64,000 bases of DNA from Trypanosoma brucei (GCA_000002445.1 CM000208.1:1984001-2048000); one strand, 5' to 3'. Positions 1,723 to 63,345 are shown, numbered from the stretch's first letter. Notes: generated from the letters alone by a model not told the origin. Made by a program: numbers and translations.

Positions 1723-1740
1723 ATATATATATATATATAT
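1723..1740. repeat. (TA)9 microsatellite
   Basis: Direct reading: tatatatatatatatatat. Confidence 0.9.
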
Positions 1741-2008: not shown

Positions 2009-2034
2009 ATATATATATATATATATATATATAT
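2009..2034. repeat. (AT)13 microsatellite
   Basis: Direct reading of atatatat... run. Confidence 0.9.
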
Positions 2035-43354: not shown

Positions 43355-43568
43355 ACCATCTAAATAATACTGGTCGGTGTATCAAGCATATAAAACAGAA
43401 AAAAAAAAAGAAAAAACAGTATAAACGTAGGACAAAACTAGGATTTACAACAACTCACACAACTAACTCCAAGCAAGGATTTTTTTCCTCTCCACCAAAA
43501 AAGTATTAAAAATATAGGGAATCCTCAGATGATTGACAAAAAATTTATAACTTAAGTGATTGCTTTAC

Positions 43569-45791
43569 TTACTGCCCTCCTCTAGCACGACCACGCCCCC
43601 GGCCGCGCCCGTAGTCTGCTGCGCCACGGAAGTCGCTGCCACCTCCGCGTCCAAAACCTCGTCCCCCACGCATATACCCCTGGCCCCGTCCTCCACGGAA
43701 ATCGTTGCCATGCCCGCCCTTCTCGCAGTAGTGGGCAATATTTTCCACACTTCTCGCAGTAGCCTCCACCAGGTACTGCAGGCGTGAAATGTTGCTTCTA
43801 TCCACGTGAAGGTACTGATCATCTCTGTCCCACACAGCAATGAGGGGGGTGTTATTTTCTGATATAATACCGTTAATGACATGCTTAACTGTGCTCTCAG
43901 TTATATCAAACTTCTTGGCCATAATCTCCACGGATATCGTCGCAAAGCTACGCCTGCTGTTGTAACAGAATATCTGTAGGGCTGCTTCCTTCAAACGTTG
44001 TAGAAATGTGTCTCGTGCCTCAGTACCTCTCGGCATGTTATCCCAGACCTTCATGTTTTTGATAACTTCACTTGAGCGCGCATAATCACCCAGCTTCAAG
44101 GCAGTGTAAGCAGCTGTTATTTGCTCTCTGAACTCGATAGGCTCGCCCAGGAGTGGCTGAAACTGCATCTGATTTATTACACGGTAGAAATAGCGGTGAT
44201 GGTGTGTAACCTCGTAGGGCTTTTTTGCTTCGTCCACTGTGCCGACTACAAGCGTTGAAAGCATCGTTGCAAGCTCCAGCTGACTATAAGGGATGTGGGC
44301 GTGTGGAGGCAGTAGTAAATCACGGTACCTCAACTCCTCATCCCCCTTCTCATCTTTTAAATTCGGCAGCTTTTGGCCTATCAATACCTCAGGACCTTCC
44401 CACGAATTCCATAAAGGACTCAGGAGCTCATACGCTTGCATGATGTCACCCATAATGAAGGATGCCAAACCCAGTTGTGCGACAGCTCTGTTATAGAGGA
44501 CAGAATTATGGTTGGAGTTGCACAGCTTCTCTGCCCCACCAGAGCGTCGTATGAGATCCCGTCCCTCCCGGTACTTCCCTTCTAGTCCCATTTGGTAAAC
44601 CAAATGAAGCAGAGCAAGTGATTTGGACTCGTCATCACCGATGAGGAGGAGTTGCTCGTAGAGCGATCGCACTGTCTCAATAACACTGTCACTGACGGCC
44701 TCACGCTGTCCCGGAGGCATCTTGCCAAACAAAATCTCGTGGGCCTCCTGTCTCCTTGACCCAAGGATGTCAACAAGAATCTGGCAACAAACCGCTCTGC
44801 CGCGGCTGTTATCCCTATAATAGCCGAAGAGAGCGTCAGCAATAGCCACCAGCCGGTTCTCCAAGTGAACAATCTCGATATAGTCGGATGGAATACCGTC
44901 TTTAAATTGCGTAATGCGTCGCAGGTGTTTGCTGAGACTCTGCAACAGAGCATGCAACCCACCCTTAATGAATGCATCCCTTTTGTTGAGCTTGTCGGAA
45001 AATTTGTCCGATAGCCTTATTCCGGGATTTTCAACTATCAGACCGAAGCATTCCTCCAACGTATCACAGGATTTTGCCCACGTTTTGGTACTGACGTAGA
45101 CCTCGCGATTATCCTCTTCGAGAAGGGCATCCGCAACGATACCACATGTCGTGATCTGCAGTGCCTTATACCCTTTCCTTTTGCATTCGTTAGCAAGCTT
45201 ACGGTATTTGGACGCTTTCTTACCGGTACACGTCACGGACTCCCGCAGTTGCTTTACAATGTCGTCTTCAGTTAATTCCTTTTCCGCCTCCTCCTCGTCA
45301 CCTTCATCACCATCTTCTTCGTCGTACAAACGTTCAATATCGTCCTTGTACGTCTCCATCGCTTCTTCAACAGCCTTGATCAGCCCCTTGAGGGAACGAA
45401 ACTCCTCTGGCTTTGCAAATGATTCTCTCTCGGATAGGTGTGTCTTGAGATCTGGAGTGTTTCGGAGGCACTCCAGGAATGGGAAAGGTGTCGACTGAAA
45501 TCTCCGCTTGTGGATATCCGATTTCTCGCGAAGCTCTTTGAATGATTGCTCCGCTCCGACCCATGTCCCCTGATCAACGTTGAAGTCAAAAACATCGGCG
45601 TTTGTCTGTATTTCGTTCAATGACTTCTCACGCCGAGAAAGGACGACACGCTGTTCCTCTGCAGCTTCATCATCGGTTATTTCGAACCATTTTGGATCGA
45701 TCTGGGCGGTGTTCCTTTCTACCTGATCGTCGCGCTGGATAACTTCGTCGATACTTTCGTCACTGTCACTTACGTTAAAGAAATCCGCCAT
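43569..45791 (-). CDS. EIF3C: Eukaryotic translation initiation factor 3 subunit C (copy 1)
   Basis: MADFFNVSDSDESIDE start matches eIF3c MSRFF..SDSESE. Acidic region, PCI domain (…FATISVEIMAKKFDITESTVKHVINGIISE…), C-terminal RGG repeats. Central block aligns with human EIF3C (YNRAVAQLGLASF vs YNRTMVQLGICAF). Confidence 0.8.
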   Translation of the reverse strand: MADFFNVSDSDESIDEVIQRDDQVERNTAQIDPKWFEITDDEAAEEQRVVLSRREKSLNEIQTNADVFDFNVDQGTWVGAEQSFKELREKSDIHKRRFQSTPFPFLECLRNTPDLKTHLSERESFAKPEEFRSLKGLIKAVEEAMETYKDDIERLYDEEDGDEGDEEEAEKELTEDDIVKQLRESVTCTGKKASKYRKLANECKRKGYKALQITTCGIVADALLEEDNREVYVSTKTWAKSCDTLEECFGLIVENPGIRLSDKFSDKLNKRDAFIKGGLHALLQSLSKHLRRITQFKDGIPSDYIEIVHLENRLVAIADALFGYYRDNSRGRAVCCQILVDILGSRRQEAHEILFGKMPPGQREAVSDSVIETVRSLYEQLLLIGDDESKSLALLHLVYQMGLEGKYREGRDLIRRSGGAEKLCNSNHNSVLYNRAVAQLGLASFIMGDIMQAYELLSPLWNSWEGPEVLIGQKLPNLKDEKGDEELRYRDLLLPPHAHIPYSQLELATMLSTLVVGTVDEAKKPYEVTHHHRYFYRVINQMQFQPLLGEPIEFREQITAAYTALKLGDYARSSEVIKNMKVWDNMPRGTEARDTFLQRLKEAALQIFCYNSRRSFATISVEIMAKKFDITESTVKHVINGIISENNTPLIAVWDRDDQYLHVDRSNISRLQYLVEATARSVENIAHYCEKGGHGNDFRGGRGQGYMRGGRGFGRGGGSDFRGAADYGRGRGRGRARGGQ

Positions 45792-46139
45792 TTTACCTGA
45801 AAGCTCGATGCTGCTAAGATACCTGCGGTGTACATGCGGATGAGAAAAGGAGGTGAGAACAAAAAGAACAATTGAGGAAAATAATGTATCCGCGCATGAT
45901 AAGCGGGGGCTTGCTCAACCACCGGAGCGAGGTTAGCCACAACGATACTTAACGCATGTTGATATTAAAAAAAGGAGACAGAAAACAAGTAAGCGAATAA
46001 TCTGTTGAGAGAATATGCTCCCGTGTTTTTTTTCCAATTTGGCTTCCTCTCAGCTTCAATGATGGTGTCGACTCCCATAGTCCAAGCATCTTCAACTTGC
46101 AAAAGGTTAGTCATAAGAATATGGTCACTTACGGTAATC

Positions 46140-46472
46140 TCAGTCATCAACTTCAGTTTCAAAAGGCCTTCCAGCTGCAGCGGTACGAATATCTCTGCTG
46201 ATCCTGAGGCCCCTGGCACTCTCGCCATGCGTGTGTGTTGTCACTGCGACACCCGCGCTACATACAGCACCTGCTCCGCATGAGGGCTGTGACGTAGCCA
46301 TAAAGCGTAACGAGTGTGCGAGCTTGTCGAGAAAGGCGCATAGTTTTGCAAGTATGATGTCCGTTCTCTCAACTGCGGTCCAGTTTTTCTCCTGCATGTC
46401 CTGAATCTCTTTCAACATTTCATCAAGATGCATTGTGAGCTGCGGGTGAAAGAACAGGGGAAATGGTAACAA
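46140..46472 (-). CDS. Small hypothetical ORF (110 aa) conserved in both repeat copies
   Basis: Protein-like N-terminal 45 aa (MHLDEMLKEIQDMQEKNWTAVERTDIILAKL...). Overlaps a second-frame ORF (45965-46228). A frameshifted or degenerate gene is possible. Confidence 0.2.
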   Translation of the reverse strand: MLPFPLFFHPQLTMHLDEMLKEIQDMQEKNWTAVERTDIILAKLCAFLDKLAHSLRFMATSQPSCGAGAVCSAGVAVTTHTHGESARGLRISRDIRTAAAGRPFETEVDD

Positions 46473-46527
46473 AAAATTAAAGGCGTCTAAGAAAAAGCAC
46501 AGTTATTGGCTTACCATTATAACCAAT

Positions 46528-46992
46528 CTATCCGTCAAACATCCTTTTTATTTTGGTGGAAATATGTTCATTAGCAAACGAAACAACGGCCGCATTCGCA
46601 CCAACAATCTGATGCTGCTCAACGCCTTTGACATGTCTCAAATTTAACTCAACCCATAAAGAAGTGGCCCCACGTATAATGACGAACCGGGATGGTCTGT
46701 GCGTCACACTGCACCCTGGTACCTCAGAAACAGGAGGCACAGTAATGCTCACTCGTATCGTTTCACCAAATAGTAAAAACCCGTTCATTTTTATGTAAGC
46801 CTCTTGAGCAGACACAGATTCCGCGTAAGTCACCAGTGCCTCACCTACGTCGACATCCAAGAGAACGTCATACAACGACCCGAGTTCCCCAAAGCAGCGT
46901 AGGAGTGCTAATCTGCAAAACTCTACACCAAATGTAAACTTTAAACCCTGAACGCGAAGCGCCTCCATCACTCCCCCATCAAGGCATAACAA
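46528..46992 (-). CDS. RRM-like domain protein (copy 1, 154 aa)
   Basis: GELGSLYDVLLDVDVGEALVTYAESVSAQEAYIKMNGFLLFGETIRVS has the RNP1/beta3-alpha2-beta4 pattern of an RRM. Confidence 0.45.
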   Translation of the reverse strand: MLCLDGGVMEALRVQGLKFTFGVEFCRLALLRCFGELGSLYDVLLDVDVGEALVTYAESVSAQEAYIKMNGFLLFGETIRVSITVPPVSEVPGCSVTHRPSRFVIIRGATSLWVELNLRHVKGVEQHQIVGANAAVVSFANEHISTKIKRMFDG

Positions 46993-47212
46993 TGGAAAAG
47001 TGGTTTAATCTAAAGTAATACCAACAAATAGGCAGCAAAGCAAGAGGCGAAAGTTAATACAGCAGTTCCAGCACAAATACATAATATATCAACAACTAAA
47101 CCAGTAACATAAACAGATAATTTACGGTCATAAACATATGATTAGCAGTCGGTTAGCGTAATTACGTTTAATATTTAAAGTAGAGCTGTAACAACTTAAG
47201 TGATTGCTTTAC

Positions 47213-49435
47213 TTACTGCCCTCCCCTAGCACGACCACGCCCCCGGCCGCGCCCGTAGTCTGCTGCGCCACGGAAGTCGCTGCCACCTCCGCGTCCAAAA
47301 CCTCGTCCCCCACGCATATACCCCTGGCCCCGTCCTCCACGGAAATCGTTGCCATGCCCGCCCTTCTCGCAGTAGTGGGCAATATTTTCCACACTTCTCG
47401 CAGTAGCCTCCACCAGGTACTGCAGGCGTGAAATGTTGCTTCTATCCACGTGAAGGTACTGATCATCTCTGTCCCACACAGCAATGAGGGGGGTGTTATT
47501 TTCTGATATAATACCGTTAATGACATGCTTAACTGTGCTCTCAGTTATATCAAACTTCTTGGCCATAATCTCCACGGATATCGTCGCAAAGCTACGCCTG
47601 CTGTTGTAACAGAATATCTGTAGGGCTGCTTCCTTCAAACGTTGTAGAAATGTGTCTCGTGCCTCAGTACCTCTCGGCATGTTATCCCAGACCTTCATGT
47701 TTTTGATAACTTCACTTGAGCGCGCATAATCACCCAGCTTCAAGGCAGTGTAAGCAGCTGTTATTTGCTCTCTGAACTCGATAGGCTCGCCCAGGAGTGG
47801 CTGAAACTGCATCTGATTTATTACACGGTAGAAATAGCGGTGATGGTGTGTAACCTCGTAGGGCTTTTTTGCTTCGTCCACTGTGCCGACTACAAGCGTT
47901 GAAAGCATCGTTGCAAGCTCCAGCTGACTATAAGGGATGTGGGCGTGTGGAGGCAGTAGTAAATCACGGTACCTCAACTCCTCATCCCCCTTCTCATCTT
48001 TTAAATTCGGCAGCTTTTGGCCTATCAATACCTCAGGACCTTCCCACGAATTCCATAAAGGACTCAGGAGCTCATACGCTTGCATGATGTCACCCATAAT
48101 GAAGGATGCCAAACCCAGTTGTGCGACAGCTCTGTTATAGAGGACAGAATTATGGTTGGAGTTGCACAGCTTCTCTGCCCCACCAGAGCGTCGTATGAGA
48201 TCCCGTCCCTCCCGGTACTTCCCTTCTAGTCCCATTTGGTAAACCAAATGAAGCAGAGCAAGTGATTTGGACTCGTCATCACCGATGAGGAGGAGTTGCT
48301 CGTAGAGCGATCGCACTGTCTCAATAACACTGTCACTGACGGCCTCACGCTGTCCCGGAGGCATCTTGCCAAACAAAATCTCGTGGGCCTCCTGTCTCCT
48401 TGACCCAAGGATGTCAACAAGAATCTGGCAACAAACCGCTCTGCCGCGGCTGTTATCCCTATAATAGCCGAAGAGAGCGTCAGCAATAGCCACCAGCCGG
48501 TTCTCCAAGTGAACAATCTCGATATAGTCGGATGGAATACCGTCTTTAAATTGCGTAATGCGTCGCAGGTGTTTGCTGAGACTCTGCAACAGAGCATGCA
48601 ACCCACCCTTAATGAATGCATCCCTTTTGTTGAGCTTGTCGGAAAATTTGTCCGATAGCCTTATTCCGGGATTTTCAACTATCAGACCGAAGCATTCCTC
48701 CAACGTATCACAGGATTTTGCCCACGTTTTGGTACTGACGTAGACCTCGCGATTATCCTCTTCGAGAAGGGCATCCGCAACGATACCACATGTCGTGATC
48801 TGCAGTGCCTTATACCCTTTCCTTTTGCATTCGTTAGCAAGCTTACGGTATTTGGACGCTTTCTTACCGGTACACGTCACGGACTCCCGCAGTTGCTTTA
48901 CAATGTCGTCTTCAGTTAATTCCTTTTCCGCCTCCTCCTCGTCACCTTCATCACCATCTTCTTCGTCGTACAAACGTTCAATATCGTCCTTGTACGTCTC
49001 CATCGCTTCTTCAACAGCCTTGATCAGCCCCTTGAGGGAACGAAACTCCTCTGGCTTTGCAAATGATTCTCTCTCGGATAGGTGTGTCTTGAGATCTGGA
49101 GTGTTTCGGAGGCACTCCAGGAATGGGAAAGGTGTCGACTGAAATCTCCGCTTGTGGATATCCGATTTCTCGCGAAGCTCTTTGAATGATTGCTCCGCTC
49201 CGACCCATGTCCCCTGATCAACGTTGAAGTCAAAAACATCGGCGTTTGTCTGTATTTCGTTCAATGACTTCTCACGCCGAGAAAGGACGACACGCTGTTC
49301 CTCTGCAGCTTCATCATCGGTTATTTCGAACCATTTTGGATCGATCTGGGCGGTGTTCCTTTCTACCTGATCGTCGCGCTGGATAACTTCGTCGATACTT
49401 TCGTCACTGTCACTTACGTTAAAGAAATCCGCCAT
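47213..49435 (-). CDS. EIF3C: Eukaryotic translation initiation factor 3 subunit C (copy 2, protein identical to copy 1)
   Basis: Same as copy 1. One synonymous difference near the stop (tct vs cct on the plus strand = AGA vs AGG Arg). Confidence 0.8.
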   Translation of the reverse strand: MADFFNVSDSDESIDEVIQRDDQVERNTAQIDPKWFEITDDEAAEEQRVVLSRREKSLNEIQTNADVFDFNVDQGTWVGAEQSFKELREKSDIHKRRFQSTPFPFLECLRNTPDLKTHLSERESFAKPEEFRSLKGLIKAVEEAMETYKDDIERLYDEEDGDEGDEEEAEKELTEDDIVKQLRESVTCTGKKASKYRKLANECKRKGYKALQITTCGIVADALLEEDNREVYVSTKTWAKSCDTLEECFGLIVENPGIRLSDKFSDKLNKRDAFIKGGLHALLQSLSKHLRRITQFKDGIPSDYIEIVHLENRLVAIADALFGYYRDNSRGRAVCCQILVDILGSRRQEAHEILFGKMPPGQREAVSDSVIETVRSLYEQLLLIGDDESKSLALLHLVYQMGLEGKYREGRDLIRRSGGAEKLCNSNHNSVLYNRAVAQLGLASFIMGDIMQAYELLSPLWNSWEGPEVLIGQKLPNLKDEKGDEELRYRDLLLPPHAHIPYSQLELATMLSTLVVGTVDEAKKPYEVTHHHRYFYRVINQMQFQPLLGEPIEFREQITAAYTALKLGDYARSSEVIKNMKVWDNMPRGTEARDTFLQRLKEAALQIFCYNSRRSFATISVEIMAKKFDITESTVKHVINGIISENNTPLIAVWDRDDQYLHVDRSNISRLQYLVEATARSVENIAHYCEKGGHGNDFRGGRGQGYMRGGRGFGRGGGSDFRGAADYGRGRGRGRARGGQ

Positions 49436-49784
49436 TTTACCTGAAAGCTCGATGCTGCTAAGATACCTGCGGTGTACATGCGGATGAGAAAAGGAGGTGA
49501 GAACAAAAAGAACAATTGAGGAAAATAATGTATCCGCGCATGATAAGCGGGGGCTTGCTCAACCACCGGAGCGAGGTTAGCCACAACGATACTTAACGCA
49601 TGTTGATATTAAAAAAAGGAGACAGAAAACAAGTAAGCGAATAATCTGTTGAGAGAATATGCTCCCGTGTTTTTTTTTCCAATTTGGCTTCCTCTCAGCT
49701 TCAATGATGGTGTCGACTCCCATAGTCCAAGCATCTTCAACTTGCAAAAGGTTAGTCATAAGAATATGGTCACTTACGGTAATC

Positions 49785-50117
49785 TCAGTCATCAACTTCA
49801 GTTTCAAAAGGCCTTCCAGCTGCAGCGGTACGAATATCTCTGCTGATCCTGAGGCCCCTGGCACTCTCGCCATGCGTGTGTGTTGTCACTGCGACACCCG
49901 CGCTACATACAGCACCTGCTCCGCATGAGGGCTGTGACGTAGCCATAAAGCGTAACGAGTGTGCGAGCTTGTCGAGAAAGGCGCATAGTTTTGCAAGTAT
50001 GATGTCCGTTCTCTCAACTGCGGTCCAGTTTTTCTCCTGCATGTCCTGAATCTCTTTCAACATTTCATCAAGATGCATTGTGAGCTGCGGGTGAAAGAAC
50101 AGGGGAAATGGTAACAA
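49785..50117 (-). CDS. Small hypothetical ORF (copy 2 of 46140-46472)
   Basis: Identical translation to the copy-1 ORF. Confidence 0.2.
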   Translation of the reverse strand: MLPFPLFFHPQLTMHLDEMLKEIQDMQEKNWTAVERTDIILAKLCAFLDKLAHSLRFMATSQPSCGAGAVCSAGVAVTTHTHGESARGLRISRDIRTAAAGRPFETEVDD

Positions 50118-51721: not shown

Positions 51722-52168
51722 TCCACCTATACGGAAGGGAATTAATCAGAGACGATAAAGGGTAAGGGGGGGGGGGAAATATACTCGTGCAATGTGTAAA
51801 ATATTCACCAAATTAAAGTACAATGGGCTAAGGCAAATCAGGGAAAACATTCACGTTAGCGCCCTAGAAAACAGAAATAAAAATACCTAGCCCAAACAAT
51901 ACCCTCCACTACGCACCATTTCCACCTCGGTATCCTAATAAATCGATAGCATGTATATACTTAGGGGATGCACAAACCAACCAGCATAACACAGATGCCT
52001 GCGAGGAAAAAATAATAACAATAATCGTTACATCGCCTCCTATTCTTCATATATACATATGTTATATATAATAGACTGTGTTTGAACGCAAATAATAAAT
52101 AGACTGCTGTAACACTCCTACGAACCATACCATTAATCCCTGTTTCTTTTTTCCCTTCTACTGGGGTA

Positions 52169-52543: not shown

Positions 52544-53089
52544 TAATTAAAGGATATAAATTATTGCCACTACCTTCCTATATGCCCTCAATGTAGTCTT
52601 TGTGAGTTCAAAGTTAGCACTTTAGCACACAAGTGAAAAATAAACGATCAGAAATTACAACGAGACCCAGTGGCAAAAGATACATGCAAGTATTCGCACG
52701 CATACATCCGTGGTGCGAAAGAATTTCAAACTGATGGACACGCAAACTTGCGTGCCTGAAGGTAGATGTTAAATTTGGATTGTCTATACTTAAAACTGTA
52801 TCCGAAGATAATAAGAGGGGGTATATTAAAAACATCTAATGAAGAAAAACATCTCTATATGCAACCAGGTTCTTGGGGCAAATTTTAGTTTGCTCGCTCA
52901 AGAACACACGGACAAACTGATTGATGTTGGGTGGCAAATGGTAATAATCATCATTGCGAGTATCAACCCTTTCTCCCACGTATTCATCACAGTTGCCATA
53001 ATGAAACAATAAACCAACATAAAAATAAACAAACGACAGGTTTCTATTTTCTAACTTGAGTGACCCATTCTCCTTTTTTTTCATTTTCA

Positions 53090-53797
53090 CTAGTTATAAG
53101 TCCTTACTTTTTCCATCCAAATGCGGCACCCAAACTCTCTGTAAAGTTCCTTAAGCAGTTGAACGAAATCTATACGCGCCTTGGCGGTATAGTAAAACGT
53201 GAGTTTCTTTTTGTCAAACTGATATTCAGCATGGCGGATCTCCATATCAAATCTGTGACGATGGACTCTCCGTTGGCAGTAAGTAACGGCAATAGCTTCT
53301 TGCTCTTTCAGGTCAATAGCCCAGTAGTCCACTTCCTGTTGCGTTGCGTACCGCAAAATGTTGCCTGTTGGTCCAGAACGCTCCACATAGGTCTTGCAAG
53401 AATCCGTATTTACCCGAATGACAACACCGACATCAATTCCTCTGTCACCTTCCACAACGACATATTGGCCTTTCCCAACCAGAATAGGAGAAGAAAACTC
53501 TTTTTGATGACATTTAAACTGCACTAGGGCGCTGCATACAGGCGCCGTGGCAGGTGATGCCGGAGCTTCATCCCCGTCGTGTAAATTTTCTGGTTCGTTT
53601 AAATTTTTCGACGAAAACATTATATCCGGGAAAGCAATTGCGGTTGCGGGGAGCGTTGGTTGGATAAGGCATTTCCACCCGTATGGGTCATGGCGGATTA
53701 CGGAAGGCCTTGTCGTATGAAGAACAACGCCGGCTTTATGTTCCTTCCCATTGTGAGAAGCCTGAACGTTAGTAACATCTGCAAGTAAACTGGCCAT
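53090..53797 (-). CDS. PSP1 C-terminal domain protein
   Basis: VQFKCHQKEFSSPILVGKGQYVVVEGDRGIDVGVV ... RYATQQEVDYW...KKKLTFYYTAKARIDFVQLLKELYREFGCRIWM matches the PSP1 C-terminal conserved region. Confidence 0.6.
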   Translation of the reverse strand: MASLLADVTNVQASHNGKEHKAGVVLHTTRPSVIRHDPYGWKCLIQPTLPATAIAFPDIMFSSKNLNEPENLHDGDEAPASPATAPVCSALVQFKCHQKEFSSPILVGKGQYVVVEGDRGIDVGVVIRVNTDSCKTYVERSGPTGNILRYATQQEVDYWAIDLKEQEAIAVTYCQRRVHRHRFDMEIRHAEYQFDKKKLTFYYTAKARIDFVQLLKELYREFGCRIWMEKVRTYN

Positions 53798-55142
53798 AGC
53801 ACAGAAATTAGAGACCTACCGAAATTGATCTGGCTTTGCTTAGAAGTGTGACAAAGAGGAATAACTGGGAACGACAAACGCAAATACATAAATAAGGGAG
53901 ATACATACAAATCAGAAAACTGACATGATCCGCAGCTGCGGCACAAACACACAAAATGATCTCCCTTTCTTCTTTTTCACTCGTTAAGGGGAGGGATACT
54001 TAACTTTAGAAACAGCAATAATAAAAAATGTAAGAAAGCACTGCACATCTTTCTCTCCTTAGTCCAGCACCTTGAAACCGATACTTTCGGTACGCAATCC
54101 TGAAAATCAGTTGAATACGATCAAAATTTTTTTTAAAAAAATGGTAGCGGCACAAGCAAAACAAGTTTTGGCACGTAATGCCAGATCTAAAGTAAATTTT
54201 AAGGAAGGACTCCTGAACTATTTTGACAATTAAATCAAAAATTTTATGATGTCTCTCTTCGCAAGTAACACAGACATCACTATTTCAAAACCATCGCCCG
54301 AAAAAGAAGTGCGGCATTTCACCGAATTCTTATTGCGAGGTTCAACTAGAGAAGTTCACCGAGGAAAGAGAGCAAAAACACCCGTTTAAAACATCCTGCA
54401 AACTACATATGAAGACAGAACTGGAGCGCGATGATCCAGGGAGGGATGTCGCAAACAGCACTAGTAATGGCGGTAATAACGCCCATCAGAGTATGAGTAT
54501 GTAGTGGGAGCACCCGACTGGCTCAAAAATCCGCACATACACCCATGAAAAAATATGTACAACAAATAAGCAGCGCAGCGCAGTCCTCCCAATAAACACG
54601 GACGGAGGACAAGGTCAAAAGAGGAGACCATCTGTAACGAGAATCGGGACGGCAAACACACCGACAAAGTGAAATTGCAATCTTTTCTTTAACTAGTCGG
54701 TAAATAAACCCCGAGGGAAAACGACATGTTTCTTGCCCCTTTCCTCATTTAAGAAAAAAACGAACAGAAAACTGTGCCGCACATTAGTATCAAAATTGAG
54801 CAGCAAGCCCTAGTCGCCAACGCCACGTGACGGTCGAAAACTCCTTTTTTTTACCCTTCCTTCCGCTTAACGCTAGGTATCGAGGGATGTTTTTTGACGG
54901 CCCACAAACACCCTTTCGTGGGCTGACCGGCATTTCACACACCACCCAGTTGCGACAATCTTGCTGAGAAAGACGGCGAAGAAGGGACAGCAGCTGACAG
55001 CATGAGCAGATATACTGGCAGGTCCCCTATCTTTGGCTTCACGTTCGTCTCCTGTGAAGGTGATGTTGTTCCTGACCAACACCTCGAAAACTCTGGAGGG
55101 AACCAAGCCGGACTCGAGGTTCTGAAAGGCATTTGTCCACCA

Positions 55143-55164
55143 CCCCCCCCCCCCCCCACACACA
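55143..55164. repeat. Homopolymer C15 followed by (CA)4
   Basis: Direct reading: cccccccccccccccacacaca. Confidence 0.9.
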
Positions 55165-56997
55165 TACAAACTTCCTCTTTTAATGTGCGTCGCGCGACGC
55201 TTAAGCAAATGAGGAGGGGACGCCTAGCACCCCAACTTCAAATGGCTGTGGGGCCAGCTTTTCCCAGACACTGGCCCGAGCAAGCCACGCAAACGCGGCA
55301 CCCCACTGGTGCGTTCATCCCCTTCGCACCCACCTCCGGAAACCTTCCGGAAGCGGAGGAACCTCCGGTGCGGTACCCCCTGCCGTGCTGTAACGGACCC
55401 TACTGCATCAGGTAAGTACCGAGCGAGGGGCTGCCAGGGGGCGTCGTCATTACTCTCTCGCCAACCTGTTTTACCATCGCCTCCGCCGCGTTCCCGTATT
55501 CCCCTGACACCCCCTCTGCCACTGAGTGCTTCTCACTGTCGTAATAGCAGTTCCGCAATCGTCGCAGCACGGTTGTGCGCATGATACTTCGTCAAACTCC
55601 AGAAGACGACGTTTCCGCCACTCCCCACGCCGCACAGGTAGCATTTACTACTAACGCGGGCGCGGCTAACAGACCTTCAGCGCAATGATGTAGCACCTGA
55701 GCGGGGCTCGTCCCCGGTGAATCACCGTTGTCGACGTTTGGAAACTTCTCTTTAACGATCTTCTTTGCATCACCTTCGTCTCGATGTGGCCGCATCGCCA
55801 ACTCAGTTGTAACGTTGCCCGCGCTTATTCATCTCTAGCTTTCCATCGCTATTGTAAGTTTGCTTTTTTAAACTTCCACCCCGGACCCCAGCTGCCTTTA
55901 TTTCTTTACGTGCGACCCGGATGTCGCCCGTATTCCCGCAAATCCACGGCTGCGCTCGAACCGCTCTCCATCCGAATAACCAAAGACCACAGCTACACCT
56001 TGTGTTCCTCTTTCTTTTACTCGGGAGCCAGCGAACCTTGATGCTCCGTGAGGCTTTTGGACAATGTGGGAAGATGTTTTGCCCCTCTTCATCGTCCTCC
56101 AGTGGAAAGGGCAAGCCACTCAACCGAAGACGTAGAGGTCCCCCTGCACCATTTTCGACAGTTGCTTGGCTCTGCATCAGGATGTTTGTGATACCAGTTT
56201 GCGGTTTCCCGTTTTCATAACGTTTCTCTTCCTTCCTTCCTTCCCTTGGAGACGGCAGGTTCGGTTTGGCGTCTGCCAATGTCATTGCATGTTCTGCTAC
56301 TTCCTGACCCCTGCCGGTAAGCATGTAACTTTGTTTCTTTATGCGGTTTGTCGCTGTATCGCATCTCGGGAAGAATGAAAAGCTTGCCGAGCATCCCATT
56401 GGTTTTCTAGCTTTCTCCAGCTGAAACTCAAGAGGTGAATTCAACTCAGCTCATTCATCATGGGGCGTACCCAAGCCCGTTCTCCCCCCACCTCTTTTTC
56501 ATCCTCCCGATCGCTAAGCCGTCTACACTCGTTTCTGTGCCTTTTTTAAAGGGCCACCCCGTGGAACCATCTAAAGCGCCTCGAAGGTGACAACGCAGAA
56601 CTATGTAAGAAAAGTTTTCCTTACCCTGGTGAGTTGCACCTTCTCCGGAGCAGGTCTAATGCCTCGGAAGAGGTAAGTTTGATGCGCGACTGGTCTCAAG
56701 CCGCCCTAAAATGACCCATTTTCTTCATCACATTCCTTCTCTGTGACGCTCATCAAAACATCCGAGATCCAAGTTGGTCACGTCTGTGGACAGTTTCCCC
56801 TTCCCCTATCTGCGATTTTTACCGCTAATTCATTTTTCACCATGCCACGGTGGGGGGCCCCATTTGTACCGAGTTCGCCAACCCCCTTCATGAGCATGAA
56901 AACTTCCTTCTATGTCAGTGGAACGCCCCGTTTTTTACCTGAGTTTCGTATGTTTTCAGGGTAACTAGAAATGGTACGGAGTCACTCTGAGTGCCAC

Positions 56998-57015
56998 AAC
57001 CCTAACCCTAACCCT
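56998..57015. repeat. Interstitial telomere-like hexamer (CCCTAA) x 2.5
   Basis: Direct reading: aaccctaaccctaaccct. Confidence 0.85.
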
Positions 57016-59954
57016 TTTCAGAAACTTTGCGGGCCCTGGTCTCACAGCAGCGCTGCCCACTTTTCGACTGCGCGGCGGTCTCCCGGCCCCCTTGCACAAC
57101 ACAGTAGCACCATCGGCGCTGTCAAGTATGAAAGGTGCGCCACCGGATAGTATATTCAATTTGAAGAGGCCACTAGTCAGGCTCGAATGTTGCGGGGGGG
57201 GGCATATATTTTAGCCATTCTCACCACCAACACCTCTGCCTCGTCCGACACATGTCTCTTCAGCCCCCACAAAAGAAGAGGCTCGTGTGCGTGACTTTTG
57301 AAGCTTACCAAAATGTGCGCACTGCGAATGGGGAAACTACCTTATCCATGTTGTTACGCTAATCATCGGAAATAACCAAGCCCATGCCGTAGGGATTGCC
57401 TGAGAACACTGGCTTTCGACAGCCTCGCCGGATGTTCCCTTCTCTGTTTCCGTTTCGCCCAGCCCTACGTCGGCATCTTGCAAATCCCTTTTTTAGTGGT
57501 GGTCAGTTGCCCATCCCCCACCATGTCACCATCATTTCCTTAGGACAACAAGCCAGTTGCAATATTGGCTGCCAGCCACTTCAATAGTTACACATGGTTA
57601 TTGTCTTTCCGAAAGGGCAAAAGCCATAATGGGTTCACCCAGTGGCAAGTATTTCTTTGCATCGAAAAGGAACAGAGTGTCCTTCACGCTCCTCTTCTTG
57701 CTCTCCATTTCGGTGGGGAATTTGCTCGAAACTTAATCAGCTTCGGCCTAGTTGTCTTGGGAACCTCTCGCAAGTGTTTCCGCGCATCTCTTGTAGGCCG
57801 AAGGGTAGGGCCTAATAGCCCTGACATCCTCGTCTGGATCATTCATTCCCCCACACGCTGTGTGGCACAATACTGTTGGCGCCGCTGCCCCTAAACAACC
57901 TGTTTCCCGTCTCCTCGGAAGACGCGTCTATGAAAGGGCCCTTCAACCATTGGATGGTGCTGTCGAATCCTCCCTGAAGGATAGGCTTAAATTGATTGCG
58001 ACACGCCTTCCCGTGTGTCGGAACTGATCCGTCCACAAAGAAAGAAGCGCCGGAAGCCGAGTTTCCTGTTCAGTGCTCCGCTCTGTCTACCCATTTTTCT
58101 GAGCAAACCGAGATCCAGCACCAGTCCTTGCGGCGCCTCGCGTGTTGGTGCGGGGTTCCGCAACATTCTGCCTACTGTTCCATCCCTCGCCGTTCCGTTG
58201 TGCAGAAAACTATCCATCCGCTTCGTGATGTGTCGGGCAAGGGAGAAGCCCTCAGACATGCGGGTAACACGGCCATGTTTAACCAACCTGAATGCACAAA
58301 CACAGTCTGCTAATGAGCCCATGGTGTTTCGTGACGTTTCTTCCACAGCTCAGGTTCCAACGAGTTATTCTGTGCTGTTGGTTGCCGAATACTACCCTGA
58401 TACCAGGTTGTTGTGTCTGCAACCGACTCTCGTGTGAGTTTTGATGCAATCCAACGGTGATCTGCCACATTAGCTTCCACACTTTCGCCGTTACCGTCAC
58501 CGACCGGAAGTGTGATGACAACGAAAAGTTAAGTCGGCCCTGGAAGACCCATAGCTCATCCAGCTTCTGCTTCCATAATCTTTGGGTACCGTAAAAATTT
58601 GTTGAACAACTTCGACTGTTGCCGGGAAACATTGATGTGCTTGTGATCGGGCTTCTCATAACGAACGTTGCCCTCGTCTGTGGCAACCCTGTTTGAAAGA
58701 AAAACGAGACCACCTCTGATAGCATTTGGCACCCCACTGGTTCCGGTGGCCATTTCCTCGTACTTTCTTTGATATGCCGAGCCTGTTATTCATTGTGCGT
58801 AACTGTTACTTCGTGCTGGGACGCCGTTACATTTTTCGTCGGTTCCAAGGAACGCAAAAGCACAGCATCGGCACCGTTGCCGGCGCCGTCACCCCCGGGG
58901 AGTAACTCCAGCGGAGGCGTGGAACGAATCTGCAGAAAAGGAATCACATTGATCCTGGCGGGCGGGGCCGCCGGGTCATGTGTGGGAGGGCGGCGGTTCG
59001 TTCGTGGCACCGGGGGAGAGAGCATTGTCATCGGGATGACATCCTTGGGGCTGCTGCGAGGAGCTTTCGGGCGCGAGAAAACCGCGCCAACCGTGCAGAG
59101 CTGTTGCGGGGGGAGGAGGCCGGCTCGTCAACTCGAGTGGGGTTGTGGCAAGTCGCTTGGGCCGTGCTCGGTGCTATCAATGGGAGAGACCAGGCGGCCG
59201 CGCCGAGCAAGAGGCGCCCCCGACTGGTAGCGAAGTTTTTCGGGGAACCGTTACCCCCTCCCCCCACTTGAGGCATGGCTGGGTTGATGGTTGTTCAGAA
59301 GATGCTTTGGCTTTGTTTACCGCCGGCGGTAGTGGGTTCTTTTGGGTGGGCGAGGTGTTCCCTTAGGGATCTCCCTTCCCTGGGATGGCGAAATATGATC
59401 GGCACACATTGCTCGAACTGGTGCCGCTGACTGGGCACGGATGTGAGTGGTGGGTCCGTGCGGCGGAGTATACAAAGGAAGAAAAGTAGTGGGTATGGGT
59501 GTAGAAAGAGCCCCCAGGCTGCCGTACTGAGTTCGCTAGTAGAGAAGGATCGCTGATCGGCCACACCTTGAGGTCGGAAGAAGCGTTAGACCTGTGCACC
59601 CGGCCCTGTAGCCGAGGCGTTTTTGAAGTATGTTCAGGTTTCCAAGTGGGGAATAGTGGCTAGTTGACCACTGTGCGTCCGGAATTGAGGTATGTTTTTT
59701 TTTTTTGTAAGTCCGCGTTGAAGTGGTCTTCATATCCACTGGTGGTCAGTTTTCCACTCTCGTCCCTGGGAGTCACCTATTGTTTTCTCCCCCTTTCTTG
59801 TGAAGGCAATTGCATGTCACCTTGCACTTGACAGTATCACTGTACAAGGGCCTAATCACTGTGTTTATTTACTATTATTTTTATTTGCATTATCATTCAC
59901 TGTCGTCGTCATTGTTTCAACAATACTTCACTAGGGTAATGGTGTCTACGGGAA

Positions 59955-61484
59955 ATGGACGTCGACAAATATAACTGTTCCGTTGTTTTTGATGATTTTA
60001 AGGTTTCCATCGAGCAATGTGATTTTTATGCGCTTGATCAGGAGATGACCGGTGTCGATAACGGTGAGCGACCGCAGTCAGGAACAATGAGTTTGACAGA
60101 GCTTTACCAAGTTTCGCGGGACGTTGTCAACCGGTACATTGCCTTCCAGCTAGGTGTAACAGTTTTCAAGCGTGTTGATGGCGGATATGAGGTTAAACCA
60201 TACAACTTTTATTTATTGAAAAGTGTGGGCGATTTTGTTGTGAATATTGAGTCACTGAAGTTCTTGGCAGACAACCACATGGATTTTCAGCGGTGGTTGG
60301 TGACAGGCATGCCGTATTGTGGTAAAGTGGACACAGGGTTGCGTGGTGATGAAGGAGGTTCTGTGTCTAGTTTAAGGAGAGGGTTGTCCGAATACCTTGT
60401 TAGTCGAATAAAAAAGTGGTATAACAGCCCGTTGGCACGGGATGGCGAGTGTATTACTTTCAAAACTGTAATATGCGAAGAAATAGAGCGGTTGACTTTA
60501 TCAAAGCTTAAAGAAGAACAAGTTTTCGTTTCATTTGAGTATGATAAGTCGAGATGCATTGGATCACCGGTGTCGTTGACAGTTCACCGTGGAACGAGTC
60601 ATTTCGCCAGCGGCCAAGGTAAGGAAAAGGCCACACCTGATTTAGAGCCGATCAAAGTATGTGGGTTTCAACATTTTTGGAAGTGCTTAACCGATTGCAA
60701 GAAACCTATTGTTGGCCACAATTTTTGGCTTGACATTATGTTTATGGTTCAAATGCACGAAGGGCCTCTCCCCGAAGATTATGATACTTACAAGAGACTC
60801 GTTCACCAACTGTTCCCGTGCGTATACGATACGAAAACACTCGGCCGCGAGGTGATAATTAACAACTTATCTGAGTCTTTTTGTCTGAAAGATTTGTACG
60901 ACAGATGCCTGGCCTCGAGGCTAAAATTGGGAGGGGCACCAGAGTTCTTTTTCCCACCAGGATTTGGTCGGTACGACCCAGACAGCCTTGAAAGTGAATG
61001 CAAAGCCCATGAAGCTGGGTACGATTCATACATGACGGGCGTGGCTTTTTCCATTTGTAGGGATTTGTACTGTAGCGGTGAAAATTCTACCTTGGATAAG
61101 TGGCGAAACATTGTTTCTGTCTACGGCAGCAATTACTATATGAATGTCAATGGCAAGGATAGTTTGAGGAGGTCTGCAACGTTTGTGGTGGAGTTTAGGG
61201 AGGAGATTGAGTATCCTTTTGGAGAGTTGCTTCTGTGTCGGGACGATGCATTCACAAATGTGGATAGGGACGTGGAGTTATTACCGAGGGACTGTATTAT
61301 ATCATATGACAACAAAGGATTATGCAGGACGATAATAGTTGTGTTCGAAGATGATATTAGCGAAGACGAGGTACAAACGCGCATTGCGAATTCGGCGCGC
61401 CGTTGGAGTGAGGTTACTAAGGAGGCAAATGCTTATAATATAGTATTTCCCGAAATACTAAGTGTTTACCGTCTTAGTGGGTAG
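59955..61484 (+). CDS. PARN: Poly(A)-specific ribonuclease (PARN, CAF1/DEDD family deadenylase)
   Basis: FYALDQEMTGV (DEDD motif I, cf. FFAIDGEFSGI), IVGHNFWLDIMFMVQMHEGPLP (cf. [22 protein letters not shown]), HEAGYDSYMTGVAF (cf. HEAGYDAYITGLCF). Confidence 0.75.
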   Translation: MDVDKYNCSVVFDDFKVSIEQCDFYALDQEMTGVDNGERPQSGTMSLTELYQVSRDVVNRYIAFQLGVTVFKRVDGGYEVKPYNFYLLKSVGDFVVNIESLKFLADNHMDFQRWLVTGMPYCGKVDTGLRGDEGGSVSSLRRGLSEYLVSRIKKWYNSPLARDGECITFKTVICEEIERLTLSKLKEEQVFVSFEYDKSRCIGSPVSLTVHRGTSHFASGQGKEKATPDLEPIKVCGFQHFWKCLTDCKKPIVGHNFWLDIMFMVQMHEGPLPEDYDTYKRLVHQLFPCVYDTKTLGREVIINNLSESFCLKDLYDRCLASRLKLGGAPEFFFPPGFGRYDPDSLESECKAHEAGYDSYMTGVAFSICRDLYCSGENSTLDKWRNIVSVYGSNYYMNVNGKDSLRRSATFVVEFREEIEYPFGELLLCRDDAFTNVDRDVELLPRDCIISYDNKGLCRTIIVVFEDDISEDEVQTRIANSARRWSEVTKEANAYNIVFPEILSVYRLSG

Positions 61485-62434: not shown

Positions 62435-62700
62435 CGGAGTTACAGGTTGTTACATTAATGTCGCCTTCTTTTTTTGTGTAATATAAAAATCATTTGGCGT
62501 TGTTTAAGACAATATTTGATTCAAGGGATATGAAGAGATAAATACCCCTAAAAGTTGAACAATATATTTGCCCTCGCATCTCCTGTGTTTTCCCCCTCAG
62601 TGATATAACGGAGAGCACGTAGCACTAGACGATAGAGAGAAGAAGAGTCCGTGACAGCCCTGGGCATACGCGTATATAAACCAAAATTCTAAACGGCAAA

Positions 62701-62916
62701 ATGAGGGCTCTTTTGCTCTTTTTTGCCGCTGCTTCTCTTATTCAAACGGTGCTGGTAGGCGGCGCTAGCGGAAATTCACAAAACACCGTTTCGATTTCCG
62801 GAGACACCCTTGGAGGGATCCTTTTGGGTTCGCTGGTAGGCGGTATCCTGATTTTCGCTGTCTTTATGCTGGCAAACATTGAATCACCCGAAGTACTGGG
62901 TCATCCTGACAGGTGA
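62701..62916 (+). CDS. Small secreted/membrane protein (71 aa: signal peptide + glycine-rich TM)
   Basis: MRALLLFFAAASLIQTVLVGG signal-like start. GGILLGSLVGGILIFAVFML TM helix. Confidence 0.3.
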   Translation: MRALLLFFAAASLIQTVLVGGASGNSQNTVSISGDTLGGILLGSLVGGILIFAVFMLANIESPEVLGHPDR

Positions 62917-63345
62917 CATGAAGATGATGCCTGCTTCCACCGCTAGTTTCTTGGCCACCATTGTTTTTTTTTTAAAACTAGCGTATTGAAAAGGCAACCG
63001 TTTCCTCTAGGCATATTCCCCTTTCTCCAGCTAAAGAAAGGAATCGTCGGTTTCACAGGGAACACGGGGGAAAAGCAACGAATGCCATACTATTTGAGTT
63101 CCTTAACTCTGCAGCTATCTAAGGATTCCCCCTTTTCTTTTCCCCTTCCTCCTCTACTTTTGAATTCCTGTGAGAGGGATGTTATGCAAAAAAAAAAGAA
63201 AAAATCGAGAATGTGATTCAGTGTATGTATATACACATGTAACAGTTTCGTGATTTTTTGTTATTCCGTTTTTTTTTTCTTGATGTGTCTTTTATCCTTT
63301 TTCTCTTTGTACCCGTTAGGCAGCTTCTCTAGTGGAAAAAGTAAC

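What the first reader, a model, noticed from the sequence alone, without database searches (positions are those of the whole stretch)
53798..59954. Gene-free 6.2-kb divergent strand-switch region with C15-(CA)n and G-rich tracts
Orientation flips from an all-minus to an all-plus gene array across this interval, and no ORF in it has protein-like composition. In trypanosomatids such divergent strand-switch regions are the sites of bidirectional pol II initiation and carry specialised chromatin (established knowledge). This interval has higher GC than the flanking intergenic regions and contains an uninterrupted C15 run followed by (CA)4 at 55143-55164 and several G-runs (for example 57196-57204). 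Both fit the GT/C-rich initiation elements described for these regions. Its length may also hide an unannotated small RNA gene.
Basis: partly seen in the sequence, partly recalled or inferred. Interest (0 to 1): 0.5.

Follow-up and report, generated by a model that had tools for sequence, protein, structure and literature searches.

The report
Known trypanosome divergent transcription start region
This 6.2-kb gap between two gene arrays that point away from each other on Trypanosoma brucei chromosome 10 is a real two-way start region for RNA polymerase II, but this exact locus is already mapped and published as a worked example, so it is ordinary.

Summary
The window is T. brucei TREU927 chromosome 10, v4 coordinates 1,984,001-2,048,000. 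The interval 53798-59954 lies between the start codons of the PSP1-like gene Tb927.10.8330 (minus strand) and PARN-2 (plus strand).

- All genes to the left are on the minus strand and all to the right on the plus strand.
- GC is 0.51, against 0.455 for the other intergenic DNA.
- C15-(CA)4 sits exactly at 55143-55164.
- The G9 run is at 57194-57202, 2 nt from the stated position.

Kolev 2010 lists both flanking transcription units as 'Divergent'. Kieft 2020 (Fig 5) shows this SSR with two divergent start sites, mapped by 5'-triphosphate RNA-seq and H2A.Z ChIP.

'Gene-free' is wrong on paper. The reference annotates Tb927.10.8340 (55803-56399, minus, 198 aa) and Tb927.10.8350 (59036-59230, plus, 64 aa). 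Both look spurious:
- no transcript in wild type
- non-coding codon usage
- 8340 has no relative outside the T. brucei group, and its length is within chance for this sequence (neither test was run on 8350).

No tRNA, Rfam family or protein-domain relic is present. T. cruzi and T. theileri do carry three tRNA genes at the equivalent boundary.

Verdict: already known, low interest.

The parts
53798..59954 (.). Divergent strand-switch region between Tb927.10.8330 (PSP1-like, minus) and PARN-2 (plus; EAN78242, presumed Tb927.10.8360). Equals Tb927_10_v4:2,037,798-2,043,954.
   Evidence: Strand flip in the ORF list. Flanking genes verified. Coordinate offset of 1,984,000 from Kolev Table S2, and 'Divergent' transcription units in Table S14. 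Kieft 2020 Fig 5.
54500..55250 (-). Zone that is GT-rich on the minus strand. Inferred core of the leftward transcription start region (for the PTU beginning with PSP1).
   Evidence: 10-mers with at least 9 G/T on the minus strand peak here: 18, 20 and 33 per 250 nt. Kieft 2020 places the leftward TSS downstream of 8340, meaning at coordinates below 55803. The exact TSS position is inferred.
55143..55164 (-). (TG)4-G15 on the minus (leftward coding) strand, which reads C15-(CA)4 on the plus strand. It is the longest G/C homopolymer in the window and the only canonical G4 motif in the SSR.
   Evidence: The T. equiperdum assembly has an N-gap exactly here. The role is inferred from Wedel 2017.
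55803..56399 (-). Annotated ORF Tb927.10.8340 (Tb10.6k15.2160, EAN78240), 198 aa. It lies between the two TSSs, is silent in wild type and is probably not a protein-coding gene.
   Evidence: Exact match to EAN78240. Listed by Kolev as having no detectable transcript. Rises 4- to 13-fold on PNUTS, JBP3 or Wdr82 RNAi. Codon-usage score 0.038 bits per codon, against 0.073-0.247 for real genes. ORF length is reached in 6.4% of simulations. No true homologue outside Trypanozoon. pLDDT 32.6.
56998..57015 (+). (AACCCT)3, an interstitial telomere-like repeat in the spacer between the TSSs.
   Evidence: TRF and pattern search. Function unknown.
57194..57202 (+). G9 run on the plus (rightward coding) strand, 2.75 kb upstream of the PARN ATG.
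   Evidence: Identical in T. equiperdum. G-runs on this strand are not enriched overall.
59036..59230 (+). Annotated ORF Tb927.10.8350 (Tb10.6k15.2140, EAN78241), 64 aa. Silent in wild type and probably spurious.
   Evidence: Exact match. Kolev Table S2 coordinates and no-transcript listing. Codon-usage score -0.047. Weakly de-repressed in the PNUTS knockdown.
59000..59750 (+). Zone that is G- and GT-rich on the plus strand. Inferred core of the rightward transcription start region (for the PTU beginning with PARN-2).
   Evidence: GT-rich 10-mers on the plus strand: 11, 38 and 13 per 250 nt. GC skew turns positive at about 58.8 kb, and GC peaks at 0.63 in 58.8-59.2 kb. The exact TSS position is inferred.
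59695..59706 (+). T12 polypyrimidine tract followed by AG. Candidate trans-splice acceptor region for the first rightward gene.
   Evidence: Sequence. One T shorter in T. equiperdum. Assignment as a splice signal is inference only.

Best explanation
The interval is a divergent strand-switch region of T. brucei chromosome 10. It holds two broad, dispersed RNA polymerase II start regions facing outward. One drives the leftward polycistron that begins with the PSP1-like gene Tb927.10.8330. The other drives the rightward polycistron that begins with PARN-2.

Shown by published data mapped onto the window:
- 5'-triphosphate RNA reads and H2A.Z enrichment mark two separate divergent TSSs.
- The DNA between them, which includes the annotated ORFs 8340 and 8350, is silent in wild-type cells.
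- Each TSS also fires weakly in the antisense direction, into this spacer.
- That antisense transcription is cut short by the PNUTS-JBP3-Wdr82-PP1-1 termination complex. Losing the complex de-represses 8340 4- to 13-fold.

Inferred from the sequence:
- The leftward start region centres on about 54.5-55.25 kb. There the minus strand is GT-rich and carries (TG)4-G15.
- The rightward start region centres on about 59.0-59.75 kb. There the plus strand becomes G- and GT-rich.
- Such coding-strand G/T runs resist nucleosome wrapping, favour H2A.Z deposition and give initiation its direction, as Wedel 2017 showed with synthetic elements.
- The roughly 3.8-kb GC-rich spacer has no coding or small-RNA content.
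For: Identity and coordinates: the PARN protein is 100% identical to TREU927 on a 4.05-Mb contig. ORFs match EAN78239-78242 exactly. Kolev Table S2 gives an offset of 1,984,000.

Initiation: Kolev Table S14 lists both flanking units as 'Divergent'. Kieft 2020 Fig 5 shows PPP-seq plus H2A.Z at two TSSs flanking 8340, with the antisense 5' end adjacent to the opposing sense TSS, and attenuation that is relieved by PNUTS loss. The PP1-1 knockdown gives the same result.

Sequence: strand-specific GT-rich 10-mer peaks at 54.5-55.25 kb (minus) and 59.25-59.5 kb (plus), and a GC-skew sign change near 58.8 kb. These agree with Wedel 2017.

No other content: 0 Rfam hits at gathering threshold, 0 tRNA, and 0 Pfam hits in six frames. 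Both annotated ORFs are non-coding by codon usage and are listed as untranscribed.

An old boundary: PARN is the first gene of its unit in T. cruzi too.
Against: - The nucleotide positions of the two TSSs in the window are inferred from composition and from the published statement that 8340 lies between them. I could not read the PPP-seq or ChIP tracks.
- G/C homopolymers of 10-13 nt also occur in ordinary intergenic DNA in this window, so the C15 tract by itself is not diagnostic.
- G-runs on the rightward coding strand are not enriched.
- C-runs on the plus strand are enriched through the whole core up to 59.8 kb. The simple two-block picture does not predict that.
- No causal test of the (TG)4-G15 tract exists.
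Confidence: 0.93

Rival explanations
1. Tb927.10.8340 (and perhaps 8350) is a genuine T. brucei-specific protein-coding gene. In that case the interval is not gene-free, and the leftward unit effectively begins further right.
For: It is annotated in TREU927, T. b. gambiense and T. equiperdum. The ORF is intact in three genomes, with an in-frame 30-nt indel. The N-terminus MGCSAS resembles a myristoylation/palmitoylation signal (my own reading). Its mRNA appears on PNUTS loss, and it is up log2 2.57 in an acoziborole-resistant line.
Against: - No detectable transcript in wild-type procyclics (Kolev Table S2), and silent in wild-type bloodstream forms.
- Codon-usage score 0.038 bits per codon, below every real gene in the window (minimum 0.073) and within the range of spurious overlapping ORFs.
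- A 198-codon ORF arises in 6.4% of composition-matched random sequences.
- Only Trypanozoon homologues. The two other HMMER hits are bacterial repeat proteins.
- It differs from gambiense at 2.0% of residues plus a 10-aa indel, against 0.4% for PSP1 and 0.8% for PARN. Gly2 is lost in gambiense.
- pLDDT 32.6.
Confidence: 0.05
2. The long interval hides an unannotated small RNA gene (tRNA, snRNA, snoRNA). Its Pol III or other transcription would define the boundary, as at many other trypanosomatid unit boundaries.
For: In T. cruzi and T. theileri the orthologous boundary just upstream of PARN carries a conserved tRNA-Pro/Met/Leu cluster. Kolev lists other chromosome-10 units as 'next to tRNA' or 'next to snRNA'.
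Against: - ARAGORN finds no tRNA in the window or in the T. equiperdum locus.
- Rfam finds nothing at gathering threshold, and only two chance-level hits at E up to 5.
- No relic of the T. cruzi tRNAs by blastn-short.
- A folding scan shows nothing robust: the best region has z = -1.07 and -2.72 with 200 shuffles.
- Kolev found no novel transcript between 2,021,829 and 2,046,601.
Confidence: 0.03
3. The GC-rich core (55.1-59.7 kb) is the decayed remnant of an ancestral gene or mobile element. It would have been left when the tRNA-bearing boundary seen in T. cruzi was rearranged. Its composition would then be historical rather than functional.
For: The core GC of 0.537 equals coding DNA (0.508), not intergenic DNA (0.455). 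The left flank is not syntenic with T. cruzi, so a rearrangement occurred at this boundary. The T. brucei SSR is 6.2 kb against 1.27 kb in T. cruzi.
Against: No Pfam domain in any of six frames at E up to 1. No tblastx or tblastn similarity to the T. cruzi, T. theileri, T. vivax or T. grayi loci beyond chance. No repeats or retroelement hallmarks. This rival is compatible with the best explanation and does not replace it.
Confidence: 0.1
4. The interval additionally acts as a replication origin or ORC1/CDC6 binding site. In T. brucei these sites coincide with transcription-unit boundaries.
For: Tiengwe 2012 reports that ORC1/CDC6 sites map to unit boundaries genome-wide, and uses chromosome 10 as its figure example. 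Only general knowledge applies to this locus.
Against: I could retrieve no locus-specific data. Only a minority of ORC sites are active origins. No AT-rich or poly(dA)/poly(dT) signature stands out in the core.
Confidence: 0.15

Closest known systems
T. brucei divergent strand-switch regions / Pol II transcription start regions (Siegel 2009, from memory; Kolev 2010; Wedel 2017)
   Same: Head-to-head polycistrons. Two separated TSSs with 5'-triphosphate RNA and H2A.Z. GT-rich runs on the coding strand. No canonical promoter motif. A silent spacer between the TSSs. This locus is itself one of the catalogued dSSRs.
   Different: Nothing substantive. It holds the longest G/C homopolymer of the window, and C-runs on the plus strand are enriched through the whole core rather than on one side only.
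The chromosome-10 dSSR containing Tb927.10.8340, used in Kieft et al. 2020 (Fig 5) and Kieft et al. 2024 (Fig S3C) to show PJW/PP1-dependent early termination of antisense transcription
   Same: It is the same locus. The gene order 8330 / 8340 (bottom strand) / 8350 (top strand) / PARN matches the window ORFs exactly.
   Different: Those experiments used strain Lister 427; the window is TREU927.
tRNA-associated PTU boundary upstream of the PARN orthologue in T. cruzi and T. theileri
   Same: The same downstream gene order (PARN, 178-aa gene, ~190-aa gene, SPRY/HECT giant gene), with PARN as the first gene of its unit.
   Different: Those species carry tRNA-Pro(TGG), Met(CAT) and Leu(AAG) within 0.4-1.6 kb upstream of PARN. 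The T. cruzi SSR is only 1.27 kb. T. brucei has no tRNA or relic, and its left-hand neighbour is different.
Mammalian CpG-island-type dispersed bidirectional promoters
   Same: Broad initiation zones, raised GC, divergent sense/antisense initiation with early termination of the antisense RNA. Kolev 2010 draws this analogy.
   Different: The output here is two polycistrons processed by trans-splicing. Termination uses the kinetoplastid PNUTS-JBP3-Wdr82-PP1 complex and base J. Transcription-factor-dependent regulation of these Pol II start regions has not been established; some evidence for promoter- and chromatin-level control exists.

Membership tests
Trypanosomatid divergent strand-switch region / Pol II transcription start region | Two polycistronic gene arrays diverging head-to-head from the interval | tested here: met
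   ORF strands. Flanking genes verified by Pfam and exact protein matches. Kolev Table S14 lists both units as 'Divergent'.
Trypanosomatid divergent strand-switch region / Pol II transcription start region | Primary (5'-triphosphate) transcripts initiating on both strands within the interval | tested here: met
   Not computed from raw data. Met by published data that I mapped to the window by coordinates and gene identity: Kolev 2010 Table S14 and Kieft 2020 Fig 5A PPP-seq.
Trypanosomatid divergent strand-switch region / Pol II transcription start region | Specialised chromatin (H2A.Z/H2B.V, H4K10ac, BDF3) over the start regions | tested here: inconclusive
   The Kieft 2020 Fig 5A legend states that H2A.Z ChIP-seq enrichment marks the TSSs at this dSSR. 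H4K10ac, H2B.V and BDF3 could not be checked for this locus with the tools.
Trypanosomatid divergent strand-switch region / Pol II transcription start region | G/T-rich runs enriched on the coding strand of each start region (Wedel 2017) | tested here: met
   Minus-strand GT-rich 10-mers peak at 54.5-55.25 kb, including (TG)4-G15. Plus-strand GT-rich 10-mers peak at 59.25-59.5 kb. Caveat: plus-strand G-runs of 5 or more are not enriched.
Trypanosomatid divergent strand-switch region / Pol II transcription start region | No expressed protein-coding gene between the two TSSs | tested here: met
   Two annotated ORFs exist. Both are untranscribed in wild type and non-coding by codon usage. For 8340 only: ORF length within chance, no homologues, low-confidence structure model.
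Pol III small-RNA-gene-associated PTU boundary | A tRNA, snRNA or other small RNA gene within the boundary region | tested here: not met
   0 tRNA, 0 Rfam families, no tRNA relic. The feature is met in the T. cruzi and T. theileri orthologous loci.
Retroelement-bearing or centromeric strand-switch region | Reverse-transcriptase or endonuclease relics, or AT-rich tandem repeat arrays | tested here: not met
   No Pfam hit in six frames. No tandem array beyond homopolymers and an 18-nt telomere-like repeat. No dispersed repeats.
G-quadruplex-forming element at a TSS | Four or more G3+ tracts within short loops on one strand, and G4 formation in chromatin | tested here: inconclusive
   G15 on the minus strand satisfies the sequence motif and is the only such motif in the SSR. 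In vivo formation cannot be tested here. G4 ChIP-seq enrichment at T. brucei TSSs is reported only in general terms.

The most novel reading that the evidence does not exclude
The (TG)4-G15 tract might be a discrete cis-element rather than incidental GT-richness. As a nucleosome-excluding or G4-forming boundary, it would fix the upstream edge and direction of the leftward start region. The orphan ORF 8340, with its MGCSAS acylation-like N-terminus, might be a young T. brucei-specific gene. It would be expressed only when PJW-dependent antisense termination is relaxed. Together these would make the dSSR a regulated switch rather than a constitutive promoter.
Probability: 0.04. Interest if true: 0.45.

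Novelty: already known. Interest (0 to 1): 0.12.

Why it matters
It confirms that a reader working from raw sequence alone can pick out a trypanosome Pol II start region by strand flip, GC rise and coding-strand G/T runs. Nothing new is learned about the biology. This dSSR is catalogued (Kolev 2010) and has served as the model locus for antisense early termination by the PNUTS-JBP3-Wdr82-PP1 complex (Kieft 2020, 2024).

Three modest additions:
- Exact window-to-chromosome coordinates.
- Quantitative evidence that the annotated ORFs 8340 and 8350 are not genes.
- The observation that T. cruzi and T. theileri carry a three-tRNA cluster at the same boundary, which T. brucei lacks.

Tried and rejected
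- Hidden protein or retroelement. All six frames of the SSR, with stops written as X, were scanned against Pfam at E up to 1: no hits. The first attempts with DNA references failed because of the stop codons.
- Small RNA. Rfam at gathering threshold on the whole window, Rfam in E-value mode on 53000-60500, and ARAGORN all found nothing. An RNAfold z-score scan gave a few windows below -3 with 30 shuffles. The best region fell to z = -1.07 and -2.72 with 200 shuffles, so I rejected it.
- Cross-species conservation of the SSR interior. blastn and tblastx against the T. vivax, T. grayi, T. cruzi and T. theileri loci matched only coding flanks. T. cruzi upstream proteins have no relic in the window. 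The T. vivax and T. grayi contigs end just upstream of PARN, and the T. theileri upstream DNA is mostly N.
- T. equiperdum is 99.7% identical, too close to show constraint.
- Exact-protein contig look-ups for PARN failed.
- The two extra HMMER hits for 8340 are bacterial repeat proteins and I rejected them as compositional.
- The bacterial promoter/terminator scan was at chance level and is irrelevant to a eukaryote.
- Papers not held in the library: Cordon-Obras 2022 and Siegel 2009. I could not test the 2022 promoter motif, and Siegel's G-run statement rests on memory.
- The Kieft 2020 supplements contain no primer sequences, so the RT-PCR-mapped antisense 5' end could not be placed in the window.
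- Replication-origin data for this locus were not retrievable.
- My early note that eIF3c is present three times was wrong. There are two identical copies, and 8014-10236 is a different 740-aa protein.

Full report
**Where the window comes from**

The 509-aa CAF1-family ORF at 59955-61484 (plus) is 100% identical to a T. brucei brucei TREU927 ribonuclease encoded on a 4,054,025-bp contig. T. equiperdum annotators name the same protein PARN-2.

Exact-sequence look-ups tie four consecutive window ORFs to four consecutive GenBank proteins:
- EAN78239: PSP1-like, 53090-53797, minus strand.
- EAN78240: hypothetical Tb10.6k15.2160, 55803-56399, minus strand.
- EAN78241: hypothetical Tb10.6k15.2140, 59036-59230, plus strand.
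- EAN78242: PARN.

Kolev et al. 2010 (PMC2936537) Table S2 gives Tb10.6k15.2160 as Tb927_10_v4:2039803-2040399 (minus) and Tb10.6k15.2140 as 2043036-2043230 (plus). Both agree with an offset of 1,984,000. The window is therefore chromosome 10 v4:1,984,001-2,048,000, and the finding is 2,037,798-2,043,954.

Tb927.10.8330 is called a 'PSP1 homologue?' in PMC3985637. Kieft 2020 describes 8340 on the bottom strand and 8350 on the top strand. That fixes the modern gene IDs.

**Checking the observation**

The strand flip is real. Every substantial ORF up to 53797 is on the minus strand and every one from 59955 is on the plus strand. Pfam confirms the flanking genes: PSP1, MOZ/SAS, RRM, eIF3c and CAF1.

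GC is 0.51 for the interval, against 0.455 pooled over 13.3 kb of other intergenic DNA and 0.508 for ORFs. The core 55143-59700 is 0.537, with peaks of 0.60 at 55.2-55.6 kb and 0.63 at 58.8-59.2 kb.

C15 is exactly 55143-55157 and (CA)4 is 55157-55164. The G run is G9 at 57194-57202, 2 nt off the stated position.

Two qualifications apply:
- Homopolymers of 10-13 G or C also occur in ordinary intergenic DNA of this window, at 2798, 5979, 12645, 37999 and 51766. The tracts are therefore not diagnostic by themselves.
- Plus-strand G-runs of 5 or more are not enriched in the SSR (5 against 3.6 expected). Plus-strand C-runs are strongly enriched (16 against 6.7 expected; 0 of 1000 shuffles reach 16; 3.2 times the density in the rest of the window).

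**Is the interval gene-free?**

Not in the reference annotation. It holds Tb927.10.8340 (198 aa) and Tb927.10.8350 (64 aa). Every test I could run says they are not real genes:
- Both are in Kolev's list of annotated ORFs with no detectable transcript. Kieft 2020 calls 8340 silent in wild type.
- A codon-usage log-likelihood score, trained on 26 genes of the window, gives 0.073-0.247 bits per codon for real genes under leave-one-out. It gives 0.038 for 8340 and -0.047 for 8350. Spurious antisense ORFs elsewhere in the window score -0.13 to 0.04.
- The longest ATG ORF in composition-matched Markov sequences of the same length reaches at least 198 codons in 6.4% of 500 simulations.
- The word-indexed search found only the Trypanozoon cluster. 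The exhaustive HMMER search added only two bacterial repeat proteins matched through repeated short stretches, which I reject.
- Against T. b. gambiense, 8340 differs at 4 of 198 residues plus a 10-aa indel lying at a (CTTC)n microsatellite. PSP1 differs at 1 of 235 and PARN at 4 of 509. Gly2 of the MGCSAS start is Glu in gambiense.
- A single-sequence AlphaFold model has pLDDT 32.6, which is weak evidence.

**Other possible content**

- Rfam found nothing at gathering threshold across the window, and only two chance-level hits at E up to 5 in 53000-60500.
- ARAGORN found no tRNA.
- Pfam on all six frames found nothing at E up to 1.
- There are no significant internal repeats.
- A folding scan gave nothing robust.
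- Kolev's catalogue of novel transcripts has none between 2,021,829 and 2,046,601.

**What the interval is**

Kolev's Table S14 lists Tb10.6k15.2170 to 2950 (minus) and Tb10.6k15.2130 to 0880 (plus) as 'Divergent' Pol II transcription units. The table comes from a study that mapped start sites by 5'-triphosphate-end RNA-seq, which also showed sense and antisense initiation at all such sites.

Kieft et al. 2020 (PMC7055916) chose this dSSR for Fig 5:
- Knocking down PNUTS, JBP3 or Wdr82 raises 8340 4- to 13-fold.
- The antisense RNA attenuates with length unless PNUTS is removed.

Kieft 2024 (PMC11229358) repeats the result for PP1-1.

**How it most likely works**

Wedel 2017 (PMC5579346) showed three things:
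- 10-mers enriched on the coding strand of start regions are mostly long runs of G or T.
- Synthetic GT-rich elements drive directional initiation and H2A.Z deposition.
- Those elements are nucleosome-depleted.

In the window, 10-mers with at least 9 G/T on the minus strand peak at 54.5-55.25 kb (33 per 250 nt at 55001-55250, which includes (TG)4-G15). On the plus strand they peak at 59.25-59.5 kb (38 per 250 nt). GC skew turns positive near 58.8 kb.

This fits the published constraints. The leftward TSS must lie at coordinates below 8340 (under 55803). The rightward TSS lies beyond 8350 (above 59230) if 8350 is also upstream of its sense TSS, as the Fig 5 legend implies.

I therefore place the two start-region cores at about 54.5-55.25 kb and about 59.0-59.75 kb, with a silent GC-rich spacer of about 3.8 kb between them. 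These positions are inferred, not read from tracks.

The mechanism combines steps that are published and steps that I infer:
- Shown in general, not for this locus: coding-strand G/T runs promote open, H2A.Z-containing chromatin.
- Shown for this locus: Pol II initiates broadly in both directions at each start region.
- General knowledge: sense RNA elongates into the polycistron and is trans-spliced.
- Shown for this locus: antisense RNA entering the spacer is terminated early by the PJW/PP1 complex.

**Relatives elsewhere**

The T. equiperdum contig (L005) is 99.7% identical across the region. It has an assembly gap exactly at the C15 tract and one T fewer in the T12 tract. That is too close to reveal constraint.

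The downstream gene order (PARN, 178-aa gene, ~190-aa gene, giant SPRY/HECT gene) is conserved in T. vivax, T. grayi and T. theileri. The T. cruzi annotation calls only PARN and the SPRY/HECT gene, but the 178-aa and ~190-aa genes are detectable there by DNA similarity. The upstream side differs:
- In T. cruzi a different minus-strand gene lies 1.27 kb from PARN.
- None of the T. brucei left-flank genes is present in the 10 kb of T. cruzi sequence examined upstream of PARN, and no relic of the T. cruzi neighbours lies in the T. brucei SSR.
- T. cruzi and T. theileri share a tRNA-Pro(TGG)/Met(CAT)/Leu(AAG) cluster 0.4-1.6 kb upstream of PARN. T. brucei has no tRNA and no relic of one.

So the start of the PARN unit is conserved in T. 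cruzi and likely predates the split. The T. brucei version has been rearranged, has expanded about five-fold and has lost the Pol III genes.

**Verdict**

Novelty: already known. Interest: 0.12.

The residual novel reading has two parts: that (TG)4-G15 is a discrete boundary or G4 element, and that 8340 is a young, conditionally expressed acylated protein. My evidence does not exclude it, but I give it about 4%.

Noticed in passing
L003 9258-9620 (T. cruzi); L004 8437-8920 (T. theileri): A conserved cluster of tRNA-Pro(TGG, minus), tRNA-Met(CAT, plus) and tRNA-Leu(AAG, plus) lies 0.4-1.6 kb upstream of the PARN orthologue. It is absent from the T. brucei window and the T. equiperdum locus, with no relic.
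   Followed up: partly
window 56998-57015: (AACCCT)3, an 18-nt interstitial telomere-like repeat, sits in the silent spacer between the two TSSs. The 12-mer with one mismatch is found in 15% of shuffles; the full 18-mer was not evaluated.
   Followed up: partly
window 56382-56399 (minus strand, N-terminus of ORF 8340): The orphan ORF begins MGCSAS, which resembles an N-myristoylation plus palmitoylation signal. Gly2 is Glu in T. b. gambiense.
   Followed up: partly
window 55143-59793: C-runs of 5 or more on the plus strand (G-runs on the minus strand) are enriched 2.4-fold over shuffles, throughout the SSR core including the rightward side. The simple two-block GT-rich model does not predict this.
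   Followed up: partly
window 43542-50000: Tandem duplication with a 3644/3645-bp unit gives two 100% identical 740-aa eIF3c genes (43569-45791 and 47213-49435). The T. equiperdum contig shows a single copy, which is either a collapsed assembly or copy-number variation.
   Followed up: partly
window 27556-28380: A 438-bp tandem repeat, 1.9 copies at 98% identity, lies inside the 1209-aa ORF 26889-30518. This is also the GC-richest stretch of the window (about 0.59).
   Followed up: no
window 1-2900: Gene-free, AT-rich (GC 0.31-0.40) stretch that is strongly A-rich on the plus strand, with A14-A16 runs and (AT)n/(TA)n microsatellites. It lies downstream of the last minus-strand gene in the window.
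   Followed up: no
window 62601-63198 (plus): Kolev's novel transcript Tb10.NT.94 maps here. It contains a 71-aa ORF (62701-62916) with a hydrophobic, signal-peptide-like N-terminus, so it may be an unannotated small protein gene.
   Followed up: no
window 51766-51776 and 55140-55186 versus L005: Homopolymer instability or assembly trouble. The G11 run is 4 nt shorter in T. equiperdum, and that assembly has an N-gap exactly over the C15-(CA)4 tract.
   Followed up: yes
Tb927.10.8340 in PMC8648117: The silent ORF 8340 is up log2 2.57 in an acoziborole-resistant line. From memory, the drug targets the cleavage factor CPSF3. That would suggest leaky antisense termination in the resistant line.
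   Followed up: no
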